11,155 nt of DNA from a virus (taxonomy: Duplodnaviria > Heunggongvirae > Uroviricota > Caudoviricetes), in the IMG/VR virus record IMGVR_UViG_2529292887_000008; one strand, written 5' to 3'. How positions within the stretch are numbered: position 1 is the stretch's first letter; the number at the start of each line of letters is the position of its first letter. Positions 1,794 through 8,707 of this stretch are shown one piece after another. A program made the position numbers and the translations under genes. The notes beneath the pieces were generated by a model. The model did not search any database. It was not told where the DNA came from and was given only the letters and a program-made list of their open reading frames with translations.

Positions 1794-1933
1794 AAAGACT
1801 GGCGGCACACAGTCGCCACACATCCACTAATACAGAGATATAACTATGAAGATTGAATATGCGCCCGAACGTGGGCGGGGATTCGTTCGCCCTGGTGAAA
1901 CTGAAAAACAACAAAATTGGGGTTTTTCAGGCA

Positions 1934-1962
1934 TAAAAAAAGCGGCCCCGATATGGAGCCGC
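1934..1962 (-). terminator. Intrinsic terminator for minus-strand module 2
   Basis: On the minus strand, stem GGCGGC...GCCGC (1942-1962) followed by a 7-nt T-run (complement of A-run 1934-1940), downstream of the CDS ending at 2037. Confidence 0.5.
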
Positions 1963-2036
1963 CTTTCTGAACAATTAACCTGCTGCGCCTTATGTGTATG
2001 TGATCCCAAACATAAGCACGGGAATGATAGCCGCTA

Positions 2037-2240
2037 TCAGGCTGGTGGGCAATTACCTTGCTTGTTGGGGCCGTATTGTGCTGCCATTTTCATCCGTTCA
2101 GAACGTGAATATTTTTTTAGAAACTCATCAAGGACAAAAGCGCATGGAGCGAATCTTTCTGATTCATGCTCGAGCGCCATATTTTCGTGCTCTCTGTTCG
2201 TTTTTTGCGATGGTGTATTGGTTGATTCTTTATTGGTCAT
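2037..2240 (-). CDS. Small hypothetical protein (67 aa), paralogue of 2698-2925
   Basis: Shares N-terminus MTN(K/N) and motif ERFAPCAFVLDEFLKKYSRS / EKFALEDFVDKYPRR and a C-terminal PP(A/G) with the 75-aa protein at 2698-2925; preceded by the same conserved ~45-bp leader. Confidence 0.5.
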   Translation of the reverse strand: MTNKESTNTPSQKTNREHENMALEHESERFAPCAFVLDEFLKKYSRSERMKMAAQYGPNKQGNCPPA

Positions 2241-2246
2241 TGTGTG

Positions 2247-2294
2247 TACCTGTAAAGCAATGCGCCGGAGTTCCTCACGCCACGGCGCTGATGT
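2247..2294 (-). promoter_or_regulatory. Conserved ~45-bp intergenic element (copy 2) between RHH gene and small-protein gene
   Basis: CCTGTAAAGCAATGCGCCGgAGttCCTCACgCCACGGCGCTGAT nearly identical to 2931-2980; contains inverted repeat GCGCCG...CGGCGC (6-bp stem, 15-nt loop) followed on the transcribed strand by AUUGCUUU. Confidence 0.45.
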
Positions 2295-2297
2295 TTT

Positions 2298-2477
2298 TTA
2301 TTCTTTGGGTTCAATACCGCGTTGCTGTAATTCTTTTCGGATTATTCGTTTTATCCAAGCAGCTAAAGAGTCATCACCGTCTTGTTGTTGTGCTTTTTCC
2401 ATCTTTTCCCGTAAGTCAGGATCTAAACGGAACTGGAAAGGAGGATTACCACGCCTTTCATTCTTGTGTGTTGACAC
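2298..2477 (-). CDS. Ribbon-helix-helix (Arc/CopG-like) DNA-binding protein, 59 aa, putative GTG start; absent from the ORF track
   Basis: Manual minus-strand translation: VSTHKNERRGNPPFQFRLDPDLREKMEKAQQQDGDDSLAAWIKRIIRKELQQRGIEPKE; predicted beta-strand FQFRLD plus two helices parallels the RHH protein at 2983-3162. In-frame ATG at 2402 would remove the beta-strand, so GTG 2477 is preferred. Confidence 0.45.
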   Translation of the reverse strand: MSTHKNERRGNPPFQFRLDPDLREKMEKAQQQDGDDSLAAWIKRIIRKELQQRGIEPKE

Positions 2478-2498
2478 GTCAATTACACCCCATATAAT
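2471..2498 (+). promoter_or_regulatory. Near-consensus sigma70 promoter (TTGACA - 16 bp - TATAAT), plus strand
   Basis: -35 TTGACA at 2471-2476 and -10 TATAAT at 2493-2498; overlaps the putative start of the minus-strand RHH gene. Confidence 0.45.
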
Positions 2499-2542
2499 GT
2501 GTTTATGTGTATATACACATTACACACAACTAGCACAAAAAA

Positions 2543-2578
2543 CAACGCCCCGCAGTGATGGGAACACATACGGGGCGT
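2543..2578 (-). terminator. Hairpin with downstream U-tract on minus strand (putative terminator between modules); also 5' part of repeated leader element copy A
   Basis: Stem ACGCCCCG (2543-2550) / CGGGGCGT (2571-2578); on the minus strand followed by TGTTTTTTGTGC. Confidence 0.4.
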
Positions 2579-2665
2579 CTAACCAAACCATTAATTGAGG
2601 TAACGATTATGGTTATAAAAGAGCATAGCTTACTCTTTATACACACACAAACGCCCCGGAAACGG

Positions 2666-2688
2666 AATAATCCGTTTCATAGTTCGGT
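2666..2688. terminator. Perfect 8-bp hairpin GAAACGGA-ATAA-TCCGTTTC just past the stop of the 2698-2925 gene
   Basis: Stem-loop read directly from sequence, 10 nt beyond the minus-strand CDS end; the flanks are T-rich on the plus strand and GU-rich on the minus strand. Confidence 0.4.
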
Positions 2689-2697
2689 TTTGTGCAC

Positions 2698-2925
2698 TCA
2701 TCCTGGCGGTCGGTTTTTGCCGGATTTAAGCCGCCGTGGGTATTTATCGACAAAATCTTCAAGGGCAAATTTTTCTGGTGGCACTAAGCGCGGCGCTGGT
2801 GGTGGTATTTTTGTTCTGGTTAGTTCTTCCTCAAGTCTGGCGCAGGCTTCTGACTGCCTTTGCCGGATGATTTCATCATCTTGCGTTTGCGAGTCTTGTA
2901 TTGGTGATAGTGTGTTGTTGGTCAT
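2698..2925 (-). CDS. Small hypothetical protein (75 aa), paralogue of 2037-2240
   Basis: MTNNTLSP...EKFALEDFVDKYPRRLKSGKNRPPG; shares motifs and the upstream conserved leader with the 67-aa paralogue. Confidence 0.5.
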   Translation of the reverse strand: MTNNTLSPIQDSQTQDDEIIRQRQSEACARLEEELTRTKIPPPAPRLVPPEKFALEDFVDKYPRRLKSGKNRPPG

Positions 2926-2930
2926 GATAC

Positions 2931-2980
2931 TGCCCTGTAAAGCAATGCGCCGTAGTACCTCACACCACGGCGCTGATAGT
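2931..2980 (-). promoter_or_regulatory. Conserved ~45-bp intergenic element (copy 1) between RHH gene and small-protein gene
   Basis: CCTGTAAAGCAATGCGCCGtAGtaCCTCACaCCACGGCGCTGAT; differs from copy 2 only at loop positions of the GCGCCG/CGGCGC hairpin. Confidence 0.45.
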
Positions 2981-2982
2981 GA

Positions 2983-3162
2983 TTATTCTGATTCTTTGGC
3001 CTTGCGACGCTGGCGGTATTCAACTTCCCGCTTTAATGCAGCTGTAACAAACTGCCCTGTACTTTCGCCGGGCATTTTTACCGCCTCAACATTGTTCATA
3101 ACTTCATGTGGAACCCTTGCCGCAACTGTTTGTGATTTTGCGTTTACTGCTTTTGTCGCCAT
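2983..3162 (-). CDS. Ribbon-helix-helix (Arc/CopG/MetJ-like) DNA-binding protein, 59 aa from ATG 3162 (ORF track starts at GTG 3171)
   Basis: MATKAVNAKSQTVAARVPHEVMNNVEAVKMPGESTGQFVTAALKREVEYRQRRKAKESE: beta-strand TVAARV, helix A, G-x-S/T turn, helix B; SD GAGGGG 8 nt upstream of ATG 3162. Confidence 0.6.
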   Translation of the reverse strand: MATKAVNAKSQTVAARVPHEVMNNVEAVKMPGESTGQFVTAALKREVEYRQRRKAKESE

Positions 3163-3212
3163 GTTGAGCACCCCTCATAAAAAACAAATGCAGTATGCAG
3201 GAAAAAAAATAA

Positions 3213-3288
3213 GTGTTCAACACTTGACGTGTTTAACACCTCGATTTAAATTGGTGTTCAACACCTTATTTAGGCAAGGTGTTGAAAC
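3213..3288. promoter_or_regulatory. Operator array (4 copies of palindromic GTGTT-N-AACAC) overlapping a plus-strand promoter
   Basis: GTGTTCAACAC 3213-3223, GTGTTTAACAC 3229-3239, GTGTTCAACAC 3254-3264, GTGTTGAAAC 3279-3288; candidate -35 TTGACG at 3224-3229 and -10 TAAATT 3247-3252 between the divergent RHH gene and the replication operon. Confidence 0.5.
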
Positions 3289-3354
3289 GACGAAACCCCG
3301 CACTGTAGGAGCAGTAACGGGGCTTCTAACCAACAACGTAAACGAGGAGCCGTT

Positions 3355-3552
3355 ATGGTTGCTGTAAATCATATACCACACCTTGTACACACACAAACTG
3401 CCTTTGTGTGGCGTTTTCTGGCACTGAGTGCCGGAGAATCTCAAATCATCCACGTAACCGCCTGGACGGAACGCGAAGCGCGTAGCCGTTGCCCGTCCGG
3501 TTGTGTTGCTGTATTTGCCGCCCGTATTCGTCAGGGGGTATGCCGTGCTTAA
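3355..3552 (+). CDS. Hypothetical protein (65 aa), first ORF of rightward operon
   Basis: Strong SD GAGGAG 5 nt upstream of ATG 3355; the first ~45 nt belong to a repeated leader element (see findings), so coding status is uncertain. Confidence 0.35.
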   Translation: MVAVNHIPHLVHTQTAFVWRFLALSAGESQIIHVTAWTEREARSRCPSGCVAVFAARIRQGVCRA

Positions 3553-4158: not shown

Positions 4159-4458
4159 ATGAAACTTAAATATTCTGGCTTAACTGCCAGTGGCAACACT
4201 CACCCTAAATTTACGCGCGGTGATATTTACCGCGACCAGTACGGCGGCACGGTAATGATTAAGGGCGTGGCGGGACGGTGCGTAACTTACCGCCGTGAAG
4301 GTTACGAATATGATTGCGTGATGCCTGTTTATCAGTTCCGGCGTGATTTTTCTCTGGTACAGACCGCGCCGCATAACGTGCCCACCAGCAACGCCAGGGC
4401 ACGGGCAAACATCCAGAAGCTGAAAACCATGATTAACGGATTCAGGGGTAAAAAATGA
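4159..4458 (+). CDS. Hypothetical protein (99 aa)
   Basis: SD GGAGA 9 nt upstream of ATG 4159; stop overlaps the primase start (ATGA at 4455-4458). Confidence 0.55.
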   Translation: MKLKYSGLTASGNTHPKFTRGDIYRDQYGGTVMIKGVAGRCVTYRREGYEYDCVMPVYQFRRDFSLVQTAPHNVPTSNARARANIQKLKTMINGFRGKK

Positions 4459-6203
4459 AACTGGCACCGAACGTAAAAAAACAGCCACGCGGAATAAAAC
4501 ACAAAGACACAGAGGTAATTATCTTTGCGGGTAGTGATGCCTGGTCGCACGCGAAACAATGGCAGGAGCAGGATGGCCCCGCATCCGGCGATAATGTGCC
4601 GCCTGTGTGGCTTGGGCCAAAGCAGCTTGCCGAACTTGATGCGCTGAAAATTGTTCCGGATGGGAAAAAGCGCGTAAGGCTGTACCAGGCCGGAGAACTG
4701 GATTTAGTGGAGACCAAAAAGATTGGTCAGAAGCTGGCGGCGGCAGATATTCAGGACGCAAATTTTTACCACGAAGGAATGCACGTCCAGAAGTGTGAAA
4801 ACTGGCGGCGCTATCTGAATGCTGAGCGTGAAAATATTGCCGCAGGGCTTACCATGCCGGAGCAGAAAAATACGCAACTGGCACAAATGGCAGACAGTGA
4901 GCGCGCACAGATGCTTGCTGGTCGATTTGATGGCGTTTGTGTGCATCCGGAAAGTGAAATCGTTCACGTATGGCGCGGCGGGGTATGGTGTCCGGTCAGC
5001 ACAATGGAACTTAGCCGCGAAATGGTGGCGATCTATTCAGAGCACAGGGCCACTTTCAGCAAGCGCGTAATCAATAACGCCGTGGAAGCATTAAAAGTTA
5101 TTGCCGAACCAATGGGCGAGCCGTCCGGCGATTTGTTGCCGTTCGCCAATGGTGCGCTTGACCTGAAAACAGGGGAATTTTCCCCGCACACGCCGGAGAA
5201 CTGGATCACCACGCACAACGGCATTGAATACACGCCACCAGCACCAGGGGAGAATATCCGCGACAACGCGCCAAACTTTCATAAATGGCTTGATCACGCA
5301 GCCGGAAAAGACCCGCGCAAGATGATGCGTATATGTGCCGCGCTGTACATGATTATGGCGAACCGGTACGACTGGCAGATGTTTATTGAGGCCACCGGAG
5401 ACGGCGGGAGCGGTAAAAGTACATTCACACACATAGCCAGCCTTCTGGCAGGGAAACAGAACACGGTAAGCGCTGAAATGACATCGCTTGATGATGCTGG
5501 TGGACGTGCGCAGGTTGTCGGGAGTCGTCTTATCGTCCTGGCAGACCAGCCGAAATATACAGGCGAAGGAACGGGCATCAAGAAAATCACGGGCGGCGAC
5601 CCCGTGGAAATAAACCCGAAATATGAAAAGCGTTTCACGGCGGTAATCAGGGCGGTGGTGCTGGCGACCAATAATAACCCGATGATATTCACCGAACGGG
5701 CCGGAGGTGTGGCACGTCGTCGCGTGATTTTCCGTTTCGACAATATTGTTAGTGAGGCCGAAAAAGACAGGGAACTACCGGAAAAAATTGCGGCTGAAAT
5801 CCCCGTTATTATCCGCCGCTTGCTGGCGAACTTTACCGACCCTGAAAAGGCGAGGGCTTTACTACTGGAACAGCGTGACGGTGATGAAGCACTGGCAATA
5901 AAGCAACAGACGGATCCGGTTATTGAGTTTTGCCAGTTCCTGAATTTTCTGGAGGAAGCGCGCGGCCTGATGATGGGTGGCGGTGGTGATTCAGTGAAGT
6001 ACACGACCAGGAACAGCCTTTACCGCGTCTATCTGGCGTTTATGGCATACGCAGGCAGGAGCAAACCGCTAAACGTGGCTGAGTTCAGCAAGGCCATGAA
6101 GCCAGCGGCGAAAGTTTACGGGCATGAATATATTACGCGAAAAGTTAAGGGAGTAACGCAGACCAACGCAATTACAACAGACGATTGCGACGCGTTTTTA
6201 TAA
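4455..6203 (+). CDS. Replication initiator: P4-alpha / D5-family primase-helicase (582 aa)
   Basis: Walker A GDGGSGKST (nt ~5401-5427), Walker B-like RLIVLADQ, and overall resemblance to the phage/plasmid primase P4-family C-terminal domain; SD AGGGG upstream; iteron origin immediately downstream as in PICIs. Confidence 0.88.
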   Translation: MKLAPNVKKQPRGIKHKDTEVIIFAGSDAWSHAKQWQEQDGPASGDNVPPVWLGPKQLAELDALKIVPDGKKRVRLYQAGELDLVETKKIGQKLAAADIQDANFYHEGMHVQKCENWRRYLNAERENIAAGLTMPEQKNTQLAQMADSERAQMLAGRFDGVCVHPESEIVHVWRGGVWCPVSTMELSREMVAIYSEHRATFSKRVINNAVEALKVIAEPMGEPSGDLLPFANGALDLKTGEFSPHTPENWITTHNGIEYTPPAPGENIRDNAPNFHKWLDHAAGKDPRKMMRICAALYMIMANRYDWQMFIEATGDGGSGKSTFTHIASLLAGKQNTVSAEMTSLDDAGGRAQVVGSRLIVLADQPKYTGEGTGIKKITGGDPVEINPKYEKRFTAVIRAVVLATNNNPMIFTERAGGVARRRVIFRFDNIVSEAEKDRELPEKIAAEIPVIIRRLLANFTDPEKARALLLEQRDGDEALAIKQQTDPVIEFCQFLNFLEEARGLMMGGGGDSVKYTTRNSLYRVYLAFMAYAGRSKPLNVAEFSKAMKPAAKVYGHEYITRKVKGVTQTNAITTDDCDAFL

Positions 6204-7445: not shown

Positions 7446-7652
7446 ATGGCAGAAGAGAAAAAAGGCGGTGTTTCGGTGTACATAAGCCCCGAAATCGTGG
7501 AGGTGCTCAAGCAGCGCCACAAAAAAAACTATGAGGCTGGCGTAGCGGCTGGACTGGATCCGCTGATGACGCCGGAGCCGTCGATAGGTTCACTTGTGCG
7601 CTCTTATTTACTTGCGGCGCTTGGGATGCATAAAAATTATGGGGGTGAATAA
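7446..7652 (+). CDS. Hypothetical protein (68 aa), possibly RHH-like
   Basis: SD AAGAGGA upstream; the stretch VSVYISPEIVEVLKQRHKK suggests a beta-strand followed by a helix; stop overlaps capsid gene start (TAATG). Confidence 0.5.
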   Translation: MAEEKKGGVSVYISPEIVEVLKQRHKKNYEAGVAAGLDPLMTPEPSIGSLVRSYLLAALGMHKNYGGE

Positions 7653-8707
7653 TGGCAGGCAAAGCAACGGCACTTAACACTAACCAGCTTTTTGCGTACC
7701 TGAATCGCGGGGATATTGCGGAATTTAAATTCAGTCCGCTGTTTACCACGCTGTTTTTCCCGAACGTGGCGACATTCAGCACCCAAAACATCATGCTGGA
7801 TACCCTGGACATTGAAGAAGTCACCATGTCGGCGTTTTGTTCGCCTATGGTTGGCAGCCAGGTACAGCGCGATAAAGGATACGAAACCAGCACGATTAAA
7901 CCTGGCTACATGAAGCCAAAGCACGAAATCGATCCAACAAAAACCATCATGCGCATGGCTGGAGAAGATCCGGCACAGCTTAACGACCCTACCTACCGAC
8001 GTATGCGCCTGATTACTGGCAACATGCGCCGCCAGGTAAACGCCATTAAAGCGCGCGTGGAATGGCTGGCGGTGAATGCGATAACGACCGGAAAAAACAT
8101 TATTGAGGGCGAAGGCATAGAACGCTATGAAATAGACTGGAAAATACCGGAAAACTGCATCATAGAGCAGGGCAAGGGTAAAAAATGGTCCGAGCAGGAT
8201 AAAGAGATGCACGACCCAATCTATGACATCGAGCTTTATGCTGATCAGGCTGGTTGCCCCGCAAACGTCATGATTATGGGCGCTGAGGTATGGCGCACGT
8301 TACGCAGCTTTAAAAAATTCCGTGAGCTGTACGATCTTTCCCGTGGTTCAGAATCCGCCGCAGAACTGGCCTGTAAAAACCTGGGCGAAGTGGTGAGCTT
8401 TAAAGGCTATCTGGGCGATATTGCCCTTATCGTCTATTCCGGCAAATACGCTGACAGCGACGGCACAGAAAAATATTTCCTTGAGCCTGATTTGCTGGTT
8501 CTGGGCAACACCAACAATAAAGGGCTGGTGGCCTATGGTGCGATAATGGATCAGGAAGCGGTAAGAACGGGCGCAACACAAAACATGTTTTACCCGAAAA
8601 ACTGGATTGAGGACGGCGATCCGGCGATTGAGTACGTGCAGACACACAGTGCACCGCAGCCGGTACCGGCAGATATTCGCAAATTTGTTACCGTCAAAAT
8701 TGGTTAA
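7652..8707 (+). CDS. Major capsid protein, lambda gpE family (351 aa)
   Basis: Conserved blocks versus lambda gpE as I recall it: EFKFSPLF..LFF, PGYMKPKHEIDP, EDPAQLNDPTYRRMR, WSEQDKEMHDPIYDIELYA, RGSESAAELACKNLGEVVSFKGYLGDIALIVYSGKY, VLGNTNNKGLVAYGAIMD, YPKNWIEDGDPAIEY...SAP; similar length (351 vs 341 aa). Confidence 0.88.
   Translation: MAGKATALNTNQLFAYLNRGDIAEFKFSPLFTTLFFPNVATFSTQNIMLDTLDIEEVTMSAFCSPMVGSQVQRDKGYETSTIKPGYMKPKHEIDPTKTIMRMAGEDPAQLNDPTYRRMRLITGNMRRQVNAIKARVEWLAVNAITTGKNIIEGEGIERYEIDWKIPENCIIEQGKGKKWSEQDKEMHDPIYDIELYADQAGCPANVMIMGAEVWRTLRSFKKFRELYDLSRGSESAAELACKNLGEVVSFKGYLGDIALIVYSGKYADSDGTEKYFLEPDLLVLGNTNNKGLVAYGAIMDQEAVRTGATQNMFYPKNWIEDGDPAIEYVQTHSAPQPVPADIRKFVTVKIG

What the first reader, a model, noticed from the sequence alone, without database searches (positions are those of the whole stretch)
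2298..2477. Sub-threshold RHH gene missed by the ORF track
Manual minus-strand translation gives a 59-aa protein with clear RHH organisation from a GTG at 2477 (only 34 aa from the first ATG at 2402, which would remove the beta-strand). It falls just under the ORF-track length cut-off, and its putative start is overlapped by the strong plus-strand promoter at 2471-2498, an arrangement compatible with autoregulation or transcriptional interference.
Basis: seen in the sequence. Interest (0 to 1): 0.5.

Follow-up and report, generated by a model that had tools for sequence, protein, structure and literature searches.

The report
Arc/Mnt-like regulator gene in satellite switch
The 59-codon minus-strand ORF is a real, conserved gene for a small Arc/Mnt-like DNA-binding protein that sits in the control region of an EcCICFT073-type phage satellite (PICI), which makes it a testable candidate for the repressor that Gram-negative PICIs have so far lacked.

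Summary
ORF 2298-2477(-) starts at GTG and encodes 59 aa. A perfect sigma-70 consensus promoter lies on the + strand at 2471-2498, and its -35 hexamer is the complement of nt 2-7 of the ORF.

The gene is real and is translated from the GTG position:
- about 117 homologues, modal length 59 aa, occur across Enterobacterales, Orbaceae and Pasteurellaceae;
- codons 2-25 give dN/dS of about 0.06;
- the aligned start is ATG in Xenorhabdus and in two sister subfamilies.

It was 'missed' only because of a 60-aa cut-off. RefSeq already lists it as a hypothetical protein.

Context explains the promoter overlap. The gene is the leftward member of an overlapping promoter pair between alpA and the icd-like/primase operon of an EcCICFT073-type island. 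The start-codon/-35 overlap recurs in about 60 of 67 loci. Each subfamily, defined by its beta-strand, has its own repeat motif over the promoters.

I infer a repressor of the rightward promoter that also represses itself. This is not shown.

In this window the cassette is a second, upstream copy, in tandem with a YlcI/YnfO-type cassette. Each cassette also carries a covariation-supported antisense sRNA gene. Both lie inside a long open frame on the opposite strand that resembles P4 eta.

The parts
2298..2477 (-). RHH_B coding sequence, 59 aa, GTG start. Arc/Mnt-like ribbon-helix-helix protein.
2486..2491 (-). Shine-Dalgarno-like GGGGTG, 8 nt upstream of GTG 2477.
   Evidence: Read. A G-rich block sits at the same place in homologues.
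2471..2498 (+). Rightward promoter P(+)_B: TTGACA, 16 nt, TATAAT. Predicted transcription start about 2505. The -35 lies inside RHH codons 1-3.
   Evidence: One search shows that the consensus -10 is specific to the tandem-type islands; single-module islands have TGTAAT or GGTAAT.
2494..2523 (.). Candidate operator: inverted repeat TAATGTGT (2495-2502), 12 nt, ACACATTA (2515-2522), with an inner ACACAT. It covers the -10 and start regions of both P(+)_B and the predicted RHH promoter.
   Evidence: Invariant block in 20 loci from many genera. The 8-mer occurs only at these two places in the window. The motif is exclusive to the FQFRL subfamily.
2517..2545 (-). Predicted promoter of the RHH gene, P(-): TTGTTT (2545-2540), 17 nt, TAATGT (2522-2517). 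Predicted start about 2510.
   Evidence: Read. TTG and TAATGT are invariant and the spacing is conserved. No transcript data.
2536..2615 (-). Candidate cis-antisense sRNA of about 79 nt. Stem-loop 1 displays CCUC, complementary to the SD of the icd-type start on the other strand. Stem-loop 2 (2537-2579) plus a U-run is an intrinsic terminator.
2622..2650 (-). Predicted promoter of the antisense sRNA: TTGTGT (2650-2645), 17 nt, TATGCT (2627-2622).
   Evidence: A TAnnnT hexamer at a fixed position in 36 of 36 distinct loci.
2609..2654 (+). Stub of an icd-like start (ATG 2609, MVIKEHSLLFIHTQT...). Homology to the real icd-like 5' end (3355-) stops near 2654, which is the junction of the two cassettes.
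   Evidence: The junction is present in 110 of 5426 E. coli genomes.
2037..2240 (-). g67, a small basic protein downstream of the RHH gene in the same leftward unit. It is preceded by a 75-nt segment (2230-2304) that is 80% identical to 2915-2989.
   Evidence: (phrog_21027).
1797..1819 (-). Terminator-like hairpin plus T-run that would end the leftward RHH_B-g67 unit just after the alpA stop codon.
2983..3162 (-). Cassette A regulator: YlcI/YnfO family protein, 59 aa, also predicted to have an RHH fold.
   Evidence: 59.5 bits against a cut-off of 30.
3213..3264 (.). Cassette A promoter and operator region: three GTGTTYAACAC palindromes (3213, 3229, 3254) around P(+)_A, which is TTGACG, 17 nt, TAAATT (3224-3252).
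3285..3361 (-). Cassette A copy of the candidate antisense sRNA (promoter TTGTGT 3396-3391, TATGAT 3373-3368). It opposes the SD and ATG of the icd-like gene (3355-3552, +).
1846..2598 (+). Long open frame of 250 codons, antisense to g67 and RHH_B. It ends in the conserved TCTAACC just before the icd' SD.
2555..3367 (+). Second long open frame of 270 codons, antisense to g75 and the YlcI-type gene. It ends 13 nt into the icd-like gene.

Best explanation
ORF 2298-2477(-) is a translated gene that starts at GTG 2477 and encodes a 59-aa Arc/Mnt-like ribbon-helix-helix DNA-binding protein (RHH_B). It is the leftward gene of an overlapping promoter pair in the control region of an EcCICFT073-type phage-inducible chromosomal island. 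That region lies between int-alpA and the icd-like/DUF4222/primase operon.

Most likely mechanism (inferred). Dimers of the protein bind the conserved inverted repeat TAATGTGT-N12-ACACATTA at 2495-2522. This repeat spans the -10 and start site of the strong rightward promoter (2471-2498) and of the gene's own weak promoter (predicted -10 at 2517-2522). The protein would therefore hold the rightward promoter off and limit its own synthesis, as Arc and Mnt do at the P22 immI region. The two polymerase-binding sites overlap almost completely, so the promoters also compete directly.

In this window the cassette is an extra, upstream copy. It comprises the regulator, the promoters and operator, the antisense sRNA gene and an icd' stub. 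It sits in tandem with a second cassette of different specificity (YlcI/YnfO type, 2983-3400). Transcripts from 2471-2498 must therefore run antisense through that second cassette before reaching the icd-like/primase operon.

Shown: the gene is real, its start position, the predicted RHH fold, the conserved promoter/start overlap, subfamily-specific repeats, and synteny. Inferred: DNA binding to that repeat, repression, and autoregulation.
For: - Gene and start. There are 117 homologues, modal length 59 aa, with a conserved N-terminus MSTHKNERRGNPPFQFRLDP. Codons 2-25 give pN 0.098 against pS 0.685. Third codon positions vary in 55 of 59 columns and second positions in 17 of 59. The aligned start is GTG or ATG in nearly all loci, and several have a stop codon directly upstream.
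- Position. The order int-alpA-...-RHH, then divergently icd-like...primase, recurs in many genera. E. coli F11 and Evo1 and Shigella L004 have the single-cassette form. EcCICFT073 has the YlcI-type regulator at the same place.
- Promoter overlap. The antisense TTGACA equals ORF nt 2-7 in about 60 of 67 loci, and Ser2 is TCA in 62 of 67.
- Operators. An invariant repeat block occurs across genera. Motif and beta-strand subfamily associate exclusively: 34/39, 12/13 and 12/12, with no cross-occurrence.
- Literature. No repressor is known for Gram-negative PICIs (PMC6092414).
Against: - There is no transcript, protein or binding data of any kind.
- No Pfam hit and no sequence hit to solved structures. 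Foldseek E-values are not significant. The AF2 monomer does not form the beta-strand.
- Operator and beta-strand are cis-linked, so their co-variation could be co-inheritance.
- In this tandem arrangement the rightward promoter faces only an icd' stub. Two ATTAC pentamers that are conserved in the single-cassette islands are changed here.
- The closest genome (99.8% identical) has GTG changed to GTA at the start, so this copy may be dispensable.
- AlpA, not loss of a repressor, is the documented trigger in EcCICFT073.
Confidence: 0.6

Rival explanations
1. Decaying duplicate. The gene is intact but the whole cassette B is a recombination leftover. Control of the island rests with cassette A (YlcI type) and AlpA, and the consensus promoter at 2471-2498 is an orphan.
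For: The promoter faces a truncated icd' stub. The start codon is lost in the nearest relative, L001. Two operator pentamers are altered in all tandem-type loci. EcCICFT073 functions with cassette A alone.
Against: The ORF, SD, both promoters, the sRNA promoter and the terminator are all intact here. The junction persists in 110 E. coli genomes at 90-100% identity. A relic would not be expected to gain a perfect 12/12 promoter.
Confidence: 0.17
2. RHH antitoxin of a type II toxin-antitoxin pair with the downstream g67 (2037-2240).
Against: The gene downstream of the RHH homologue differs or is absent in other genera: small lipoprotein-like peptides, a terminator, or large cargo genes. g67 has no toxin or defence family hit. 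The 57-nt gap is unlike typical TA coupling. The conserved partner of the RHH gene is the divergent promoter, not a toxin.
Confidence: 0.06
3. An RHH DNA-binding protein whose main target lies elsewhere, for example a helper-phage promoter (interference) or alpA/int, rather than the adjacent rightward promoter.
For: Satellites do encode regulators of helper genes (PLE CapR is cited in PMC10111431). The cassette A palindrome has a one-mismatch copy on the alpA start codon, so cross-talk with alpA is conceivable for these regulators.
Against: The RHH_B repeat 8-mer occurs nowhere else in the window. The repeats lie exactly over the adjacent promoters in all three subfamilies.
Confidence: 0.12
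4. Only the 34-aa product from ATG 2402 is made, or the frame is not translated and the real coding strand is the + strand long ORF.
For: GTG is a weaker start codon. A 250-codon + strand frame is open across the region and shows stop avoidance. A few database entries call the 34-aa form.
Against: The N-terminal 25 codons are under strong purifying selection in the minus frame. ATG replaces GTG at the same position in other lineages. The + frame product has no family hit and a Cys-rich, antisense-like composition. The + frame shares third positions with the RHH frame, which explains its apparently lower dN/dS.
Confidence: 0.03

Closest known systems
Phage P22 immI repressors Mnt and Arc (ribbon-helix-helix)
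   Same: Small RHH proteins. The strand motif matches in register (Mnt FNFRMPMEVREKL against FQFRLDPDLREKM). The gene sits at an overlapping, oppositely oriented promoter pair, with a symmetric repeat over the promoters. From my own knowledge, Arc binds between the -35 and -10 of Pant and represses both Pant and Pmnt, and Mnt represses Pant.
   Different: No Pfam Arc hit. Only one regulator per cassette. The protein lacks Mnt's C-terminal tetramerisation helix (59 aa in total). The -35 of the opposing promoter lies inside the start codon. The element is a satellite, not a phage. Binding is untested.
YlcI/YnfO family (NCBIfam NF041551), including the regulator at the same position in EcCICFT073 and at 2983-3162 here
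   Same: Same length (59 aa), same position and orientation in the cassette, and the same predicted RHH fold. The flanking DNA is homologous.
   Different: The sequences are not detectably homologous: BLASTP gives nothing and hhalign gives E=0.06. RHH_B scores 20 bits against a cut-off of 30. The operators differ (GTGTTYAACAC), and the promoter is about 60 nt further from the start codon.
Stl/Rpr master repressors of Gram-positive PICIs (SaPIs)
   Same: A divergently transcribed regulator between int and the replication module. It would play the same logical role if RHH_B represses the rightward operon (PMC6092414).
   Different: Unrelated fold and size. Gram-negative PICIs are reported to be switched on by AlpA, and a repressor has not been identified. 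No evidence here for a helper-encoded anti-repressor.
Satellite P4 immunity region (P_LE, CI RNA, eta/kil downstream of the alpA homologue)
   Same: A long open frame starts just after alpA and contains an internal promoter. Its C-terminal part is also made as a short protein (icd-like here, Kil in P4). A small RNA is involved (PMC10111431, section 20).
   Different: The RNA here is a true cis-antisense transcript, not a processed sense RNA. There is no Rfam C4 or isrK hit. A protein regulator gene lies antisense inside the long frame, which is not described for P4.
Antisense RNAs of phage immunity regions (P22 sar; P1/P7 c4)
   Same: A short structured RNA complementary to the ribosome-binding region of the first gene of an anti-repressor or icd-type operon (my own knowledge of sar and c4; structure evidence).
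   Different: No sequence or structure match to any Rfam family. Its existence as a transcript is untested.

Membership tests
Ribbon-helix-helix (Arc/MetJ-type) DNA-binding proteins | A beta-alpha-alpha core of about 45 residues | tested here: met
Ribbon-helix-helix (Arc/MetJ-type) DNA-binding proteins | Sequence-profile match to a described RHH family | tested here: inconclusive
   PHROG 228 Arc-like repressor, E=1.5e-6. There is no Pfam family at E<=1 and no PDB sequence hit.
Ribbon-helix-helix (Arc/MetJ-type) DNA-binding proteins | Dimer forms a two-stranded antiparallel sheet that reads the major groove | not testable with these tools
   Only a monomer could be modelled; the strand region has pLDDT 48-64.
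YlcI/YnfO family (NF041551) | Score at or above the curated cut-off of 30 bits | tested here: not met
   20 bits, E=5e-4. The neighbour at 2983-3162 scores 59.5 bits. The profile-profile comparison of the two families gives E=0.061.
Type II toxin-antitoxin, RHH antitoxin | Conserved adjacent toxin gene in the same operon | tested here: not met
   The downstream gene is variable or absent across 36 loci. g67 has no toxin or PADLOC family.
Gram-negative PICI of the EcCICFT073 type (host element) | int, alpA, then DUF4222-primase, then capsid, decoration and small-terminase-like genes, all rightward | tested here: met
   The same order and the same roxA-side site are seen in the closest genome and in CFT073.
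Repressor of an overlapping promoter pair (P22 immI-like switch) | Operator overlapping both promoters, with repression shown | not testable with these tools
   The geometry is predicted only. P(+) is at 2471-2498; the predicted P(-) -10 is at 2517-2522; the inverted repeat is at 2495-2522.
P4 eta/kil-type long read-through ORF (context) | A long frame from just after alpA through the internal promoter into the short early protein | tested here: inconclusive
   Stop-free spans of 114-599 codons occur in the same relative frame in 26 of the 32 other loci examined. EcCICFT073 has a 428-codon ORF. Antisense stops inside RHH genes number 20 observed against 50.8 expected, while control genes give a ratio of 1.08. 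Translation is untested and there is no family hit.

The most novel reading that the evidence does not exclude
The RHH_B family and its positional equivalents (YlcI/YnfO type, as in EcCICFT073) are the missing immunity or master repressors of Gram-negative PICIs. Each is part of a compact cassette: an RHH repressor; a rightward promoter whose -35 is written into the repressor's start codon; and a cis-antisense sRNA against the first early gene. The whole cassette lies antisense inside a P4-eta-like frame that is read when AlpA drives transcription from upstream, so induction would silence the repressor by convergent transcription. Islands such as this one carry two cassettes of different specificity in series, a two-lock arrangement.
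Probability: 0.25. Interest if true: 0.78.

Novelty: new member of a known kind. Interest (0 to 1): 0.55.

Why it matters
[quoted passage not shown] This work identifies a conserved, uncharacterised small RHH gene at the exact hub of the regulatory region in dozens of genera. It gives a defined start codon, predicted promoters and a candidate operator, and it shows that the model island EcCICFT073 has an equivalent gene at the same position. That makes the question directly testable by EMSA, reporter fusions and deletion. It also warns that 60-aa ORF cut-offs hide the key regulators of such elements. Finally, the region packs three overlapping layers: a protein gene, an antisense sRNA, and a long opposite-strand frame.

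Tried and rejected
- P1 c4 / P4 CI-type RNA in the leader. Rfam gave no match on the whole window at E<=1 and only chance-level hits on 2480-2680 at E<=10. Rejected.
- Family searches for the 59-aa protein. Pfam gave nothing useful. A PDB sequence search with the family profile gave nothing. PADLOC gave nothing.
- Paralogy with the 2983-3162 protein. BLASTP gave no alignment and hhalign gave E=0.061. Paralogy cannot be claimed; the two are only positional and fold equivalents.
- RNA element between the RHH gene and g67. The conserved 57-nt spacer folds no better than shuffles (z = -0.4). It is conserved in sequence only.
- Toxin-antitoxin reading. Rejected because of the variable downstream genes.
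- Long + strand frames as known proteins. No Pfam or PHROG hit upstream of the icd-like part. One call failed because of a wrong frame.
- Locating EcCICFT073. The first attempt fetched the icd helper prophage instead; the second found the island.
- Literature searches. Searches for an RHH protein in PICIs, for YlcI/YnfO, for P22 immI details, for icd-like antisense RNAs and for EcCICFT073 inducers returned nothing usable. The library lacks most subscription papers.
- Census of the exact promoter variant. A 45-nt megablast is unreliable because of the 28-nt word size.

Full report
**1. The observation**

The ORF list gives 2298..2477 on the minus strand, a GTG start and 59 aa: MSTHKNERRGNPPFQFRLDPDLREKMEKAQQQDGDDSLAAWIKRIIRKELQQRGIEPKE. 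The first in-frame ATG is codon 26 (2402). Starting there would leave 34 aa without the FQFRL segment. No other canonical start lies between 2477 and that segment.

On the + strand, TTGACA (2471-2476), a 16-nt spacer and TATAAT (2493-2498) match the sigma-70 consensus at 12 of 12 positions. This is the only such match in the window, against 0.01 expected from shuffles.

**2. Is it a gene, and where does translation start?**

RefSeq already annotates the ORF. It is WP_000103621.1, 'hypothetical protein', 59 aa, in related E. coli genomes.

A protein search found 117 homologues in Escherichia, Shigella, Citrobacter, Klebsiella, Serratia, Pantoea, Pectobacterium, Yersinia, Proteus, Providencia, Xenorhabdus, Photorhabdus, Edwardsiella, Gilliamella/Frischella and Pasteurellaceae. 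Their modal length is 59 aa. The N-terminal half upstream of ATG 2402 is conserved at the protein level.

Eighty genomic loci were fetched. They show the following.
- The aligned first codon is GTG in most members of this subfamily, and ATG in Xenorhabdus and in two sister subfamilies.
- Several loci have a stop codon immediately upstream.
- A few Citrobacter loci that lost the GTG have an ATG at codon 5.

In 25 aligned genes, pN is 0.119 and pS is 0.768. For codons 2-25 alone, pN is 0.098 and pS is 0.685 (dN/dS about 0.06). Third positions vary in 55 of 59 codons and second positions in 17 of 59.

Translation from the GTG position is therefore well supported. A product made only from ATG 2402 is not.

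**3. Fold**

- Pfam gives nothing, and NCBIfam YlcI_YnfO_N scores below its cut-off (20 bits against 30).
- PHROG 228 'Arc-like repressor' matches at E=1.5e-6.
- The family profile aligns with P22 Mnt over the strand, helix A, the loop and helix B (E=7.8e-4). It aligns with Arc over the strand and helix A (E=2.7e-3).
- AlphaFold2 with the family alignment gives helices 20-33 and 38-52 after an extended, lower-confidence N-terminal segment (pLDDT 78). That is expected for a monomer of a fold whose strand pairs across a dimer.
- Foldseek E-values are not significant, although RHH proteins dominate that list as well.

I accept an Arc/Mnt-like RHH fold. DNA binding is untested.

**4. Context**

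The window is an EcCICFT073-type PICI. Its rightward genes are int (1-1230), alpA (1605-1793), icd-like (3355-3552), DUF4222, primase (4455-6203), major capsid (7652-8707), decoration protein and a terminase-small-subunit-like gene. Four small leftward genes lie between alpA and icd-like.

In CFT073 the island lies next to roxA, as does the closest relative of the window. At the equivalent position CFT073 carries a YlcI/YnfO-family gene plus a small partner gene.

Across genera the RHH homologue lies between alpA/int and a divergently oriented icd-like...primase operon. E. coli F11 and Evo1 and Shigella flexneri SFBU1023 show the simple form, alpA then RHH, facing icd-like.

The published description of Gram-negative PICIs says that a global repressor has not been identified and that AlpA is an activator (PMC6092414). 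A later survey describes integration, Bro, replication and late zones, with C4/isrK-type RNAs in some islands. It does not mention this protein (PMC10111431).

**5. Two cassettes in tandem**

Aligning 2200-2700 with 2885-3420 shows colinear homology at both ends and divergence in the middle.
- Left end: the start of the downstream small gene, a 75-nt segment that is 80% identical, and the 3' end of the regulator gene.
- Right end: a GC-rich hairpin, TCTAACCAA, an SD, an ATG and the first codons of the icd type.
- Middle: the regulator coding sequence and the promoter region differ.

Cassette B (about 2230-2654) therefore duplicates the architecture of cassette A (about 2915-3400) with a different regulator and different repeats. 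It ends in an icd' stub (ATG 2609).

**6. The promoter overlap is a family feature**

In about 60 of 67 loci from all three subfamilies, the best promoter on the opposite strand has its -35 TTGACA on ORF nt 2-7 (xTG TCA Axx). A -10 follows 16-18 nt further on (16 or 17 in most loci). Ser2 is TCA in 62 of 67 loci, although third positions elsewhere are saturated.

The conserved, disordered N-terminus 'MST' thus probably reflects a constraint at the DNA level.

In single-cassette islands this promoter is the one that faces icd-like. In this window the equivalent promoter of cassette A is 3224-3252. The perfect -10 at 2493-2498 is specific to the tandem-type cassette B; single-cassette islands have TGTAAT or GGTAAT.

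**7. Candidate operators and the gene's own promoter**

An alignment of 20 intergenic regions from many genera has an invariant block, GTAATGTGT-N4-ACACAT-AA-ACACATTAC.

In the window this block is 2523-2494 on the minus strand. The 8-mer ACACATTA occurs only twice in the window, as the inverted repeat TAATGTGT (2495-2502), 12 nt, ACACATTA (2515-2522). The repeat covers the -10 and predicted start (about 2505) of the rightward promoter.

It also covers a conserved leftward promoter candidate: TTGTTT (2545-2540), 17 nt, TAATGT (2522-2517), predicted start about 2510. The two polymerase sites overlap almost entirely.

The sister subfamilies have different beta-strands (KQIALRV and PQYQMRL) and different repeats at the same places: GTCATACAC/TGTCAACC, and GGTAATTACC. 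One GGTAATTACC copy lies between the -35 and -10 of the rightward promoter. Motif and strand type associate exclusively: 34/39, 12/13 and 12/12, with no cross-occurrence. This is what matched repressor-operator pairs would show, but cis linkage alone could also produce it.

**8. Mechanism proposed**

The protein binds the repeat as a dimer of dimers. It represses the rightward promoter and, because the repeat also covers its own promoter, limits its own synthesis. This resembles Arc and Mnt at P22 immI (my own knowledge of that system). Confidence in this functional reading is about 0.6.

In the tandem arrangement, rightward transcripts from 2471-2498 must cross cassette A antisense to g75 and the YlcI-type gene before reaching the operon. 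The two cassettes could therefore act in series. That is speculation.

Points against a necessary role for this copy:
- the stub that the promoter faces;
- two altered pentamers in the repeat block;
- loss of the start codon (GTG to GTA) in the 99.8%-identical genome, where PGAP then calls a 65-aa product from ATA.

**9. Rivals**

- Toxin-antitoxin reading: weak. The downstream gene is variable or absent across genera, and g67 has no toxin or defence hit.
- Relic cassette: possible, about 0.17.
- A target elsewhere (helper phage or alpA): not excluded.
- A 34-aa or non-coding reading: contradicted by the comparative data.

**10. Two further layers found while following the evidence**

(a) A candidate antisense sRNA. 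The leader region between the promoters and the icd-type start folds into two stem-loops. These are more stable on the RHH-sense strand in 53 of 54 loci, by 9.3 kcal/mol on average, because of G-U pairs.
- RNAalifold finds 22 pairs, 13 of them with compensatory changes.
- 96.8% of cells are paired, against 86.4% in shuffles and 36-53% when partners are slid. There are 85 double-change cells against 17.
- The first loop displays CCUC opposite the icd SD. The second stem-loop is followed by a U-run.
- A TAnnnT hexamer sits at a fixed distance upstream in 36 of 36 distinct loci.
- The window copies are about 2615-2536 (folding z = -6.0) and about 3361-3285.
- No Rfam family matches.

This looks like a conserved cis-antisense sRNA of about 79 nt directed against the translation start of the first early gene.

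(b) A long open frame on the + strand. It runs antisense across the regulator gene and the whole control region: 1846-2598 and 2555-3367 here.
- In 26 of the 32 other loci examined, the equivalent frame is open for 114-599 codons. It is often continuous with the icd-like ORF.
- In EcCICFT073 it is a 428-codon ORF, from 53 nt after alpA to the end of icd-like.
- Stops in that frame inside RHH genes number 20 observed against 50.8 expected under synonymous permutation. In 180 control genes the ratio is 1.08.
- The upstream part has no family hit.

The layout resembles P4 eta/kil as summarised in PMC10111431. If AlpA-driven transcripts are translated through this frame, they would run head-on into the RHH gene. 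Translation of the frame is untested.

**11. Verdict**

The finding is correct and the gene is real. As an object it is a new, uncharacterised member of a well-known kind, the Arc/Mnt-like RHH regulators of mobile elements. It is already annotated as a hypothetical protein.

Its value lies in the context. It is a concrete candidate for the unidentified repressor of Gram-negative PICIs. It is embedded in a densely overlapping control cassette that is duplicated, with different specificity, in this island.

Noticed in passing
window 2536-2615 (-) and 3285-3361 (-); loci L004-L083 about 60-140 nt upstream of the RHH start: Conserved two-hairpin RNA on the RHH-sense strand, antisense to the SD and ATG of the icd-like gene. 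It has its own TAnnnT -10 (36 of 36 loci) and a terminator. Covariation: 13 of 22 pairs have compensatory changes, and G-U pairs fix the strand. No Rfam family matches.
   Followed up: yes
window 1846-2598 (+) and 2555-3367 (+); L087 14767-16053 (+) in EcCICFT073: Long stop-free frame from just after alpA, running antisense through the small leftward genes and the control region, often fused to the icd-like ORF. Antisense stops are avoided inside RHH genes (20 observed against 50.8 expected; controls 1.08). The layout resembles P4 eta/kil. The N-terminal peptide Y.PE.GRGFVRP is shared between the window and CFT073.
   Followed up: partly
window 2230-2654 compared with 2915-3400: Two regulatory cassettes in tandem. 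Their flanks are homologous, but the regulator and operators differ (Arc/Mnt-like against YlcI/YnfO-type). The junction near 2654 lies just upstream of the sRNA promoter -35. The junction is present in 110 of 5426 E. coli genomes. Single-cassette versions exist in Shigella, F11, Evo1 and CFT073.
   Followed up: yes
window 3213-3264 and 1605-1615: Three GTGTTYAACAC palindromes surround the cassette A rightward promoter (0.39 matches expected by chance in the window). A one-mismatch copy (GTGTTAAGCAC) lies on the alpA start codon, which hints that the YlcI-type protein might also act on alpA.
   Followed up: partly
L001 3176-3178 (NZ_CP027312, 99.8% identical to the window): The RHH start codon is GTA instead of GTG. 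This also changes the opposing -35 to TTGATA. PGAP then annotates a 65-aa product from an ATA codon (WP_199851550.1).
   Followed up: partly
L006, L012, L020, L046 about 4184-4345; L047 4256-5341; L078 4222-4787; L029 4199-4777: The slot downstream of the RHH gene is a cargo site that differs between genera. Contents include 47-53-aa lipoprotein-like peptides (MKK...C..CGSNEHDLL), a 361-aa protein, a Doc-like pair, or just a terminator.
   Followed up: no
window 2037-2240 (-), 2698-2925 (-); L004 4238-4414; L087 15243-15431 (-): Small basic proteins sharing HESERFAP[CS].F.L..[FY]LK.Y follow either regulator type in E. coli and Shigella islands. They are preceded by a conserved spacer of about 57 nt that has no significant fold (z = -0.4).
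   Followed up: partly
window 2493-2498 compared with L004, L084 and L085: The perfect TATAAT -10 and the middle-site change (CATTAC to ATATAC) are shared by all tandem-type cassette B copies and are absent from single-cassette islands. The upstream copy therefore carries a stronger promoter and an altered repeat block.
   Followed up: partly
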